From the NCBI GenBank assembly GCA_934169575.1, contig CAKPOA010000004.1:11852-75851 (forward strand): a stretch of DNA of 64,000 bases, given 5' to 3'. The stretch is from an uncultured Clostridia bacterium (GTDB lineage: Bacteria; Bacillota; Clostridia; TANB77; CAG-508). The notes under the pieces are model-generated. The model did no database searches, was not told the DNA's origin, and saw nothing but the letters and a program-made list of their open reading frames with translations. Of this stretch, positions 34,341-34,495 are shown piece by piece. The stretch's first letter is position 1. Each line of letters begins with the position of its first letter. Both the position numbers and the translations under genes were made by a program.

Positions 34341-34495
34341 ATGTTGTATATAATGTTATATTATTTTTTAATACCGCGTAAGCGACCAAACGAGCAAAGT
34401 GAGTGCGATTGGAGCAATTTTCATTATATTAATTTTTCAAAACGAAAATTGCGACTGCAAGGTATGAAAAATAATATAACACTTATATACAACAT
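34341..34495. repeat. Structured intergenic repeat, copy A (inverted orientation relative to copy C); about 22-nt terminal inverted repeats and a GC-rich conserved core
   Basis: TIR ATGTTGTATATAATGTTATATT / AATATAACACTTATATACAACAT; core 34371-34416 matches 63501-63546 (reverse complement) at 41/46 positions. Confidence 0.8.

What the first reader, a model, noticed from the sequence alone, without database searches (positions are those of the whole stretch)
34341..34495. New structured intergenic repeat family, copy A: conserved GC-rich single-stranded core held inside a long hairpin
A 155-nt element lies directly after the permease stop. The termini form a 22/23-nt inverted repeat. Next inward, ATACC (34371-34375) pairs with GGTAT (34461-34465). 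In copy C the equivalent pair is ATACT/AGTAT, a compensatory change that supports selection on an RNA or DNA stem. The enclosed core ATACCGCGTAAGCGACCAAACGAGCAAAGTGAGTGCGATTGGAGCA is not self-complementary. It matches copy C (reverse complement) at 41 of 46 positions and is roughly twice as GC-rich as its surroundings. A second shared box, ATAC(C/T)TTGCAGT(C/T)GCAAT, contains the near-palindrome TTGCA-NN-TGCAA, which looks like a dimeric protein operator. ORFs crossing the copies are in different frames, so the element is not coding. I cannot match it to any known repeat or Rfam family from memory.
Basis: seen in the sequence. Interest (0 to 1): 0.6.

Follow-up and report, generated by a model that had tools for sequence, protein, structure and literature searches.

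The report
Jumping hairpin repeat with folded tip
The flagged sequence is one of about 60 copies of a small gene-less jumping DNA element (a MITE of the IS66/ISBst12 kind) in an uncultured gut Clostridia genome; it is unusual because the part kept through evolution is a folded ~95-base tip that flips in place and points mostly one way relative to DNA replication.

Summary
Copy A (34337-34502) and copy C (63384-63602, minus strand) belong to a dispersed family. It has 55 full and about 10 partial copies in this 1.25-Mb, 26% GC genome, all of them intergenic.

The youngest subfamily is an ordinary MITE of about 198 bp. It has the 14-bp terminal inverted repeat GTTACTAGTCAGCC and exact, unique 8-bp target duplications. 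The same ends and the same 8-bp duplications flank single-ORF IS66-family (ISBst12-type) insertion sequences in genomes of the same genus. This genome has no such transposase.

The unusual part is the apex. It is a ~95-nt multi-helix fold: P1, a GNRA/GNA mini-hairpin, a helix with tandem G.A pairs, and P3. About 91-95% of cells are paired, against about 30% in slid controls, and 14-19 of 26 pairs show compensatory changes. A covariance model finds it in 39 of 151 genomes of the bacterial family (22 of 50 genera), on very different arms.

The core inverts in situ. Its folding strand lies opposite the leading strand in 41 of 55 copies here and 61 of 79 copies elsewhere.

Function is inferred: the fold probably serves the element itself as a single strand, either ssDNA or RNA.

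The parts
34329..34336 (+). Left copy of the 8-bp direct repeat ATTATAAT flanking copy A. It contains the permease stop codon TAA (34333-34335).
   Evidence: Read. The same 8-mer recurs at 34503-34510. It is palindromic, so a target duplication cannot be told apart from an extension of the inverted repeat. Orthologous spacers in 10 genomes of the same genus are 9-70 nt and lack the element.
34337..34502 (+). Copy A, the whole element (166 nt): left arm, folded core, right arm.
   Evidence: CM R1 scores 101.9 bits, E = 3.9e-21.
34341..34370 (+). Left arm of copy A. It pairs with 34466-34495.
   Evidence: Arm extension, score 57. The 23/24-nt inverted repeat was read directly.
34371..34465 (+). 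Core of copy A. P1 is 34371-75 with 34461-65. The GNRA mini-hairpin is GC-GUAA-GC at 34376-83. P2 is CCAA 34386-89 with UUGG 34409-12. P2b is AC/GU plus tandem G.A (34390-93 with 34401-04) closing a 2-bp hairpin (34394-34400). The GCGA bulge is 34405-08. P3 is 34414-24 with 34442-52. The junction GACUGCAA is 34453-60.
   Evidence: Pair counts on A2 and A3, the family alignment and CM R1.
34466..34495 (+). Right arm of copy A.
34503..34510 (+). Right copy of the 8-bp direct repeat ATTATAAT.
63384..63602 (-). Copy C, the whole element (about 219 nt). It has decayed ISBst12-type ends (GTTATTAGTAAGTC ... GCTTACTATTAA), no surviving target duplication, an 11-nt insertion in the P3 loop and mutations in P2.
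   Evidence: (I1).
63441..63546 (-). Core of copy C (P1 ATACT/AGTAT).
45586..45679 (+). 'Copy B': a remnant of one end of the family, read as the reverse complement. It keeps a degenerate terminal repeat, the arm, the P1 3' strand, the junction and most of P3. It is fused to a different foldback element (45659-45875) that has its own core.
   Evidence: I3. A related 'other cargo' sits inside ISBst12-type shells in relatives (L099, L100).
20471..20484 (-). Solo ISBst12-type terminal repeat (GTTACAAGTCAGTC) with no core nearby.
   Evidence: (C4:32322, minus strand), converted to window coordinates.

Best explanation
**What it is.** The element is a non-autonomous foldback transposon (a MITE). 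In its youngest form it is about 198 bp long. It carries the terminal inverted repeats of a single-ORF IS66-family (ISBst12-group) insertion sequence, is moved in trans by that transposase, and makes 8-bp target duplications.

**What is unusual.** The part kept through evolution is not the ends. It is a ~95-nt apical module that folds on one strand into a compact junction:
- P1;
- a 2-bp hairpin with a GNRA or GNA loop;
- a helix with tandem sheared-type G.A pairs;
- the long helix P3.

The arms recombine with each other, which flips the module in place.

**Most likely mechanism (inferred).** The module serves the element rather than the host. As a folded single strand it brings the inner ends of the two arms together. 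This nucleates the long hairpin and helps the two transposon ends meet, or drives arm-to-arm template switching. Because this would happen on DNA exposed at the replication fork, copies accumulate with the folding strand on the leading-strand template.

**Shown:** MITE anatomy, the cognate IS in genomes of the same genus, the fold and its covariation, its family-wide spread, the in-situ inversion, and the replication-linked orientation bias.

**Inferred:** that the acting form is ssDNA rather than RNA, and the hairpin-nucleation role.
For: **Copy number and position.** There are 65 family hits, 55 of them full length, and all are intergenic.

**MITE anatomy.**
- The terminal repeat is GTTACTAGTCAGCC.
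- At least 9 copies have exact, unique 8-bp duplications, for example GTGAAGTT, GTCCACAT, AATTAATT, TTAAAAAT and GAACATTT.
- In total 13 of 54 copies pass the direct-repeat-plus-inverted-repeat test, against 1-6 in mismatched-flank controls.

**Cognate insertion sequences in the genus.**
- L123 is 1,672 bp, with ends GTTACTGTTCAGAC, a 497-aa ORF matching PF03050 (E = 6.5e-30) and the duplication ATAAAATC.
- L126 has ends GTTACTGTTCAGCC and the duplication TTTATTTA.
- In G002, contig-breaking ends carry the exact 14-mer.
- Published ISDge4 (ISBst12 group) has the ends GTGACTACTCAGCA and an 8-bp direct repeat (PMC12898284). That is 12 of 14 matches to the variant GTTACTACTCAGCC.

**The fold.**
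- On A2, 94.5% of cells are paired, against 31-36% when partners are slid. 14 of 26 pairs change on both sides, and 0 of 500 shuffles reach the observed values.
- On A3, 91% are paired against 28-36%, and 19 of 26 pairs change on both sides.
- The loop alternates between GUAA/GCAA/GAAA and GUA/GCA.

**Spread.** The model finds the core in 39 of 151 genomes of the family and 22 of 50 genera. All hits in the genome collection are uncultured gut Clostridia MAGs.

**Arms.** In other species 81 of 88 copies have arms of at least 20 bp, with very diverse sequences.

**Inversion in situ.**
- L076 and L079 have collinear flanks but an inverted core.
- In this genome the outer alpha/beta modules sit 7:7 relative to the core.

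**Orientation.**
- The folding strand is opposite the leading strand in 41 of 55 copies here (p = 0.0004).
- It is opposite in 61 of 79 copies in other species (p = 1.3e-6).
- The ratio is the same in convergent and divergent spacers: 13:3 here and 10:5 elsewhere.
- Among copies with both outer modules, the core is biased 12:2 but the shell only 9:5.

**No gene partner.** No neighbouring gene is conserved across genomes.
Against: - Copy A and most older copies lack the ISBst12-type ends. Only 4 of 88 foreign copies have them at up to 3 mismatches. One transposase family may therefore not explain every shell.
- This genome has no IS66-family transposase.
- Single-sequence folding energies are unremarkable and similar on both strands, with z between -1.2 and -1.75 for copy A and about 0 for copy C.
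- G.U and A.C counts give no overall strand asymmetry: 33 vs 15 on A2 and 23 vs 30 on A3. The strand assignment therefore rests on the GNRA/GNA loop and the tandem G.A pairs.
- Alignment A3 was fitted to the model, so its pair counts lean towards the structure.
- Nothing here shows whether the fold acts as DNA or as RNA. Gene orientation and replication direction are about 90% confounded in these genomes.
- The hairpin-nucleation role is conjecture.
Confidence: 0.55

Rival explanations
1. The core is a functional structured RNA carried by the MITE. It could be a cis-acting module in the mRNAs it lands in (processing site, stabiliser, ribozyme-like cleavage) or a small RNA made from a promoter in the AT-rich arms. 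The DNA-level features would then be secondary.
For: - The core is a multi-helix junction with a GNRA loop, tandem G.A pairs, about 30 conserved unpaired positions and strong covariation. This is the usual signature of a functional RNA.
- Copy A sits inside an operon, in the sense orientation, 29 nt upstream of the next start codon.
- bcr1 of the Bacillus cereus group is a MITE-like repeat that is transcribed and keeps an RNA structure through compensatory changes (PMC3184786, PMC3446304).
Against: - In about 77% of copies the folding strand is antisense to the surrounding, mostly leading-strand, genes: 26:11 here and 51:12 elsewhere in co-directional spacers. Read-through mRNA therefore usually carries the complement.
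- The bias is the same in convergent and divergent spacers, which points to replication rather than transcription.
- No conserved promoter was found.
- The GNRA-to-GNA loop interchange and the G.A pairs are equally good DNA motifs.
- No Rfam family matches, ribozyme families included.
Confidence: 0.25
2. It is a plain MITE and the core has no role. The core's conservation would reflect recent bursts and horizontal spread among gut Clostridia. The orientation bias would be a by-product of palindrome instability on the lagging-strand template.
For: - The anatomy is that of an ordinary ISBst12-type MITE.
- Distribution is patchy and copy number ranges from 1 to at least 27 per genome.
- Folding energies are unremarkable.
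- Deletion derivatives exist (C10:2193-2294 and C8:58831-58916).
Against: - Sequences that have diverged to about 75% identity still pair in 91% of cells, with compensatory changes at 19 of 26 pairs and near-invariant unpaired positions across 22 genera.
- The same core sits on unrelated arms.
- The core is not part of the parental IS.
- Single copies are kept at orthologous sites in sister species: L080 and L086 are 98-99% identical there, against 93% across the whole locus.
Confidence: 0.12
3. It is a host-used invertible DNA switch or protein-binding site. The arms would be recombination sites, and the core would carry a promoter or an operator whose orientation controls neighbouring genes.
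For: - The core is inverted between orthologous loci and relative to its shell.
- TTGCGA, a -35-like hexamer, is invariant near the 3' end of the core and is followed by AT-rich arms.
- Three direct GCGA(C/T) boxes could be protein-binding sites.
Against: - No recombinase or other gene is conserved next to the copies.
- About 60 copies lie at unrelated loci.
- Covariation shows selection on intrastrand pairing, which a double-stranded binding site does not need.
- No promoter was demonstrated.
Confidence: 0.05
4. It is a dispersed nick or transfer site for an HUH enzyme, oriT-like or REPIN-like. The hairpin followed by GAGUGCGA resembles a hairpin-plus-nic region of MOBQ-type origins of transfer. 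This resemblance is recalled from memory.
For: - A hairpin lies immediately 5' of AGTGCG.
- The genome encodes a PF03432 relaxase (E = 6.7e-41) and type IV secretion genes.
- A replication-strand bias is typical of ssDNA-acting HUH systems.
Against: - No core lies next to the relaxase gene.
- No Y1 (RAYT/IS200) transposase scores above the cut-off.
- 8-bp target duplications indicate DDE-type insertion.
- The bias places the folding strand on the leading-strand template, which is the less exposed strand.
Confidence: 0.03

Closest known systems
MITEs derived from IS66-family insertion sequences of the ISBst12 group (for example ISDge4; PMC12898284)
   Same: - The 14-bp terminal inverted repeat is of the same type. 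GTTACT(A/G)(G/C/T)TCAGCC compares with GTGACTACTCAGCA and GTAACTGCTCAGCA.
- It makes 8-bp target duplications.
- Single-ORF DDE_Tnp_IS66 partners with the same ends are present in genomes of the same genus.
- It is non-coding, about 200 bp long, multi-copy and intergenic.
   Different: - The interior is not an internal-deletion derivative of the IS.
- The conserved unit is a folded tip found on many unrelated arms across 22 genera.
- The tip flips within its shell.
- Its orientation is biased relative to replication.
- Copy A itself lacks the ISBst12-type ends.
bcr1 (group A interspersed repeats of the Bacillus cereus group; PMC3184786, PMC3446304)
   Same: It is a MITE-like, ~155-bp, multi-copy intergenic repeat flanked by short direct repeats. 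It has no transposase of its own, and compensatory changes maintain a branched single-strand structure.
   Different: - bcr1 has 5-bp direct repeats, and no cognate IS is mentioned in the review read (PMC3184786).
- It is confined to the B. cereus group.
- Its structure is a two-hairpin cruciform.
- It is known to be transcribed.
- Here the duplication is 8 bp, an IS partner is identified, and transcription is untested. No sequence relationship was tested.
Correia/NEMIS, BOX, RUP and ERIC type bacterial foldback repeats
   Same: They are short, palindromic, intergenic repeats that can be co-transcribed and can form long hairpins.
   Different: From my own knowledge, those families are confined to a genus or a few related genera. 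None is known for a GNRA-capped junction conserved across a bacterial family, or for in-situ flipping with a replication-linked bias.
REP / REPIN elements mobilised by RAYT (PMC3733652)
   Same: They are long hairpin-forming, high-copy intergenic repeats thought to act as single-stranded DNA.
   Different: REPINs have no target duplications, carry GTAG/CGTC tags and need a Y1 HUH transposase. Here target duplications are present and no Y1 transposase is found.

Membership tests
Bacterial MITE | Short, non-coding, multi-copy and dispersed | tested here: met
   Elements are 166-220 bp. There are 55 full and about 10 partial copies, all intergenic.
Bacterial MITE | Terminal inverted repeats | tested here: met
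   GTTACTAGTCAGCC sits at both ends of the young subfamily. Copy A has a 23/24-nt inverted repeat of a different sequence.
Bacterial MITE | Target-site duplication of fixed length | tested here: met
   At least 9 copies have exact, unique 8-bp duplications directly outside the terminal repeat. Copy A has ATTATAAT on both sides, but this 8-mer is palindromic and therefore ambiguous.
Bacterial MITE | An autonomous IS with matching ends | tested here: met
   L123 (G009) and L126 (G217) are 1.5-1.7-kb IS copies with 11-12 of 14 identical ends and 8-bp duplications. G002 has IS ends with the exact 14-mer. This genome has none.
IS66 family, ISBst12 group (as the source of the shell) | Single-ORF DDE_Tnp_IS66 transposase, GT(A/G/T)ACT..TCAGC ends and an 8-bp direct repeat | tested here: met
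   PF03050 matches at E = 6.5e-30 on a single 497-aa ORF. The ends and the direct repeat were compared with ISDge4 (PMC12898284).
IS66 family, ISBst12 group (as the source of the shell) | Copy A itself carries those ends | tested here: not met
   Copy A ends in AAAAATGTTGTATAT... and ...ATATACAACATAATGATA. Only 4 of 88 copies in other species have the ends at up to 3 mismatches.
bcr1-type repeats | 5-bp direct repeat, restriction to the B. cereus group, shown transcription | tested here: not met
   The duplication here is 8 bp. The hosts are uncultured gut Clostridia.
REP/REPIN-RAYT | Y1 HUH transposase in the genome and no target duplication | tested here: not met
   The best PF01797 hit scores 20.6 bits, below the cut-off of 23. 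Target duplications are present.
Any Rfam 15 RNA family | A covariance-model match | tested here: not met
   The gathering-threshold scan of the window finds only DUF3800-I elsewhere. Nothing is credible at E up to 10 on copy A. Nothing is found at E up to 0.5 on 11 divergent loci.
Invertible promoter switch (inverton) | Both orientations within a population, a nearby recombinase and an internal promoter | not testable with these tools
   Inversion between species and relative to the shell is shown. No conserved neighbour exists.
Structured functional RNA (generic) | Covarying helices | tested here: met
Structured functional RNA (generic) | Expression of the folding strand | not testable with these tools
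About 77% of copies are antisense to neighbouring genes.

The most novel reading that the evidence does not exclude
The selected unit is the ~95-nt junction itself. On this reading it is a 'tip-defined' foldback module that works as folded single-stranded DNA at the replication fork. It rides in, or helps to build and homogenise, palindromic shells of many sequences, and ISBst12-type MITEs are only one such vehicle. It flips by arm-to-arm template switching and settles in one orientation relative to the fork. That would make it a member of a so far undescribed class of elements recognised by their apex rather than their ends. Similar elements have been noted by this scan in other phyla.
Probability: 0.2. 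Interest if true: 0.75.

Novelty: new variant of a known kind. Interest (0 to 1): 0.5.

Why it matters
MITEs are normally defined and conserved by their ends, and their interiors are treated as junk. Here the interior is a covarying fold kept across a whole family of reduced-genome gut Clostridia, while the arms and ends change.

The fold flips in place and shows a strong orientation bias tied to replication, which was replicated in other species. If the fold promotes hairpin formation, end synapsis or inversion, it would be a new cis-acting device by which non-autonomous transposons compete. It would also be a source of strand-specific genome instability in abundant but uncultured gut bacteria.

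Practically, the family explains many intergenic 'structured RNA' candidates and contig breaks in these MAGs. These candidates should be masked before searching for riboswitches or small RNAs.

Tried and rejected
- **Rfam.** The gathering-threshold scan of the window, a permissive scan of copy A and a permissive scan of 11 divergent loci gave nothing.
- **Operator idea for TTGCA-NN-TGCAA.** The box is not palindromic in relatives.
- **Core derived from the interior of the parental IS.** The full covariance-model scan of 20 IS66-type and other-cargo loci gave no hit better than E = 1.2.
- **A transposase flanked by the terminal repeats in this genome.** The only genes between repeat pairs are thyA, a coupling-protein-like gene and others. 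PF03050 is absent.
- **Multi-copy PDDEXK_2 (Rpn-type) genes as the mobiliser.** One lies about 340 bp from a copy. However, its repeat unit has no shared ends with the MITE, so I treat the adjacency as coincidence.
- **RAYT/IS200 route.** There is no Y1 transposase.
- **oriT idea.** A relaxase is present, but no core lies beside it.
- **Conserved neighbouring gene in single-copy genomes.** None was found.
- **Strand assignment from G.U versus A.C counts.** There is no asymmetry.
- **Thermodynamic significance.** z-scores are weak and the two strands are alike.
- **Minimum-free-energy folding to find element ends.** It over-extends in AT-rich DNA, so I replaced it with X-drop arm extension.
I find 8 bp.

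Full report
**Observation.**

Copy A lies directly after the stop codon of an ABC-2 permease gene (33559-34335) and 29 nt before the next gene (ATG at 34532), inside an operon. The longest inverted match in the window is this pair of copies, 86 nt at 86%. Core patterns are expected 0.00 times by chance.

The window is C4:11852-75851 of a 1.25-Mb, 26% GC genome of 30 contigs that is 100% complete. BLASTN and iterated nhmmer find 65 family hits, 55 of them full length. With a simple long-ORF gene call (87% coding), every copy is intergenic.

'Copy B' (45586-45679) is only a remnant of one end, fused to another foldback element.

**Anatomy of the family.**

From outside to inside they have:
- a terminal repeat GTTACTAGTCAGCC;
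- an outer module in two versions, alpha and beta;
- an inner arm, consensus CTAAATATGTATATAAAATTATTTTT;
- the core.

At least nine copies have exact, unique 8-bp direct repeats immediately outside the terminal repeat, for example GTGAAGTT, GTCCACAT, AATTAATT, TTAAAAAT, GAACATTT and ACTGGATA. In the automatic test, 13 of 54 copies pass, against 1-6 with mismatched flanks.

Deletion derivatives lacking the core exist. They are junctions at short direct repeats, not empty shells.

**The transposase partner.**

This genome has no PF03050 (IS66) hit, and no gene flanked by the repeats is a transposase. In genomes of the same genus the 14-mer recurs. In G002 and G218 it sits 60-100 nt from many contig ends, on two different kinds of end, which is the signature of a multi-copy IS.

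- A remnant in G002 carries the C-terminus of an IS66-family transposase.
- L123 (G009) is a 1,672-bp element. It has ends GTTACTGTTCAGAC, one 497-aa ORF matching PF03050 (E = 6.5e-30) and the 8-bp duplication ATAAAATC.
- L126 (G217) has ends GTTACTGTTCAGCC and the duplication TTTATTTA.
- The literature describes ISDge4 of the ISBst12 group (IS66 family). It has a single ORF, ends GTGACTACTCAGCA and GTAACTGCTCAGCA, and an 8-bp direct repeat (PMC12898284).

The shell of the young subfamily is therefore an ordinary ISBst12-type MITE.

The same shell carries quite different centres in relatives (L099-L102). One of these resembles the second element at copy B. The core is not found inside the IS copies.

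**Copy A itself.**

Copy A lacks the ISBst12-type ends. It is bounded by ATTATAAT on both sides (34329-34336 and 34503-34510). This 8-mer is palindromic, so it is either an 8-bp duplication that includes the stop codon or an extension of the inverted repeat. In ten genomes of the same genus, the spacer after the orthologous permease gene is 9-70 nt and has no element. Copy A is therefore an insertion.

**The core is a conserved fold.**

By eye and by RNAalifold the core forms:
- P1, 5 bp;
- a 2-bp hairpin capped by GUAA, GCAA or GAAA, or in many relatives by the triloops GUA or GCA;
- GA;
- P2 (CCAA/UUGG);
- P2b, made of A-U and C-G pairs, then tandem G.A/A.G, then a variable 2-5-bp hairpin, with a 3' GCGA bulge;
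- A;
- P3, 11 bp with a variable loop;
- the junction GAC-N(2-4)-CAA;
- the 3' strand of P1.

| Alignment | Sequences | Cells paired | Paired when partners are slid | Pairs changed on both sides | Shuffles reaching the observed values |
|---|---|---|---|---|---|
| A2 (tool-made) | 39, from this genome and the genus | 94.5% | 31-36% | 14 of 26 | 0 of 500 |
| A3 (aligned to model R1) | 41, from many genera | 91% | 28-36% | 19 of 26 | 0 of 500 for four of the five measures |

A3 was fitted to the model, so it leans towards the structure.

The model finds full-length matches in 39 of 151 genomes of the same family and 22 of 50 genera. BLAST finds the core in 17 of 36 other species of the genus. 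A pattern scan of 185,579 species' genomes returns only uncultured gut Clostridia MAGs from human, rabbit, mouse, sheep and goat, including Clostridium sp. CAG:440.

There is no Rfam match.

Caveats:
- Single-sequence energies are unremarkable and alike on both strands.
- G.U versus A.C counts give no overall asymmetry.
- The folding strand is therefore defined by the G-N-(R)-A loop and the tandem G.A pairs, which would be pyrimidine mismatches on the other strand.
- From established knowledge of d(GCGAAGC)-type mini-hairpins and sheared G.A pairs, both motifs are stable in DNA as well as RNA.

**Arms.**

In other species 81 of 88 cores sit on arms of at least 20 bp (median 42 bp). The arm sequences are very diverse, and only 4 of 88 have ISBst12-type ends at up to 3 mismatches. 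Exact 8-bp direct repeats occur at 7 arm ends, against 0-3 in controls. In this genome the two arms of a copy share subfamily-specific changes.

**Flipping.**

Two sister species (L076 and L079) have collinear flanks at 93-96% identity but an inverted core. In this genome the alpha and beta outer modules lie 7:7 on either side of the core. The core therefore inverts inside its shell, presumably by exchange between the arms. This would also homogenise the arms.

**Orientation.**

GC skew is strong here (about +/-0.25) and agrees with gene-strand bias in 109 of 110 10-kb bins.

| Data set | Folding strand opposite the leading strand | Same as the leading strand | p |
|---|---|---|---|
| This genome, all full copies | 41 | 14 | 0.0004 |
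| Other species, skew at least 0.10 | 61 | 18 | 1.3e-6 |
| Convergent and divergent spacers, this genome | 13 | 3 | |
| Convergent and divergent spacers, other species | 10 | 5 | |
| Convergent and divergent spacers, combined | 23 | 8 | about 0.011, two-sided binomial, my arithmetic |
| Co-directional leading-strand spacers (++), this genome and others pooled | 77 | 23 | |

Among the 14 copies with both outer modules, the core is biased 12:2 and the shell 9:5. The bias therefore belongs to the core and follows replication at least as well as it follows transcription. It is opposite to what a beneficial cis-acting mRNA structure would predict.

**Interpretation.**

It is shown that this is a foldback MITE family with an ISBst12-type partner. 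It carries a conserved single-strand fold that flips in place and has a replication-linked orientation.

It is inferred that the fold serves the element, by hairpin nucleation, end synapsis or template switching on fork-exposed DNA. Copies then accumulate in the less reactive orientation.

The rivals are:
- a functional RNA;
- a plain MITE with no role for the core;
- a host switch or binding site;
- an HUH or oriT-like site. A relaxase is present, but there is no core beside it and no Y1 transposase.

No gene is conserved next to single-copy cores. Single copies persist at orthologous sites.

**Comparison with known families.**

The closest are ISBst12-type MITEs (membership of the shell was tested and met for the young subfamily but not for copy A) and bcr1 of the B. 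cereus group. bcr1 works alike but is not the same family: it has a 5-bp direct repeat and a different host (PMC3184786, PMC3446304). REPIN/RAYT membership fails.

**Limits.**

- The genomes are draft MAGs, in which IS copies are often lost.

Earlier notes of this scan on related genomes reached the IS66-MITE reading independently. I tested it here myself.

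Noticed in passing
window 52068-52193 (+): This is a DUF3800-I RNA (RF02969) at 68.5 bits. It is the only Rfam gathering-threshold hit in the window.
   Followed up: no
window 45659-45875: This is a second foldback family. 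It has 51-nt arms (76% complementary) around a different GC-richer centre (GTTTTATGGGTCCTTTCCACTAAAAGTGAACTCTTACCATAAAAC). A related centre sits inside ISBst12-type shells in two genomes of the same genus (L099, L100).
   Followed up: partly
window 53151-53342: A 34-nt inverted repeat (88% complementary) lies 124 nt apart. It may be another hairpin element.
   Followed up: no
L101, L102 (G036): The same ISBst12-type terminal repeats enclose two further, unrelated GC-rich centres. The shell therefore looks like a general vehicle for several cargo modules.
   Followed up: partly
G000 C1:685-1578, C1:59163-59990, C6:10-507: There are three near-identical copies (about 90-96%) of a PDDEXK_2 (Rpn-type 'nuclease family transposase') gene, each with about 300 nt of upstream sequence. 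One lies about 340 bp from a MITE copy. A related gene follows the IS66 remnant in G002 (L120, L121).
   Followed up: partly
G000 C22:12726-13949 (-): A 408-aa PF03432 relaxase gene lies in a run of same-strand genes. It may be part of an integrated conjugative element. A partial MITE copy lies at the start of the contig.
   Followed up: partly
G000 C10:2338-4668 (-): A 776-aa gene that looks like a coupling protein (by eye, not tested) is bracketed by a core-deleted MITE (2193-2294) and a full copy (4752-4960).
   Followed up: no
L248 spacer after the permease gene; L105 (G010); L142, L172, L173: A recurring hairpin motif with a GGGGACG(G/T)AG-type centre appears in several relatives, sometimes forming the outer arms of the core.
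   Followed up: no
G002 and G218 contig ends (L091-L098): Many contigs end 60-100 nt inside the ISBst12-type IS ends. This IS is therefore a major cause of assembly breaks in these MAGs.
   Followed up: partly
L048 (G029): A short variant of the core lacks P2's 3' strand and all of P3. It looks like a deletion between the direct TGCGA boxes.
   Followed up: no
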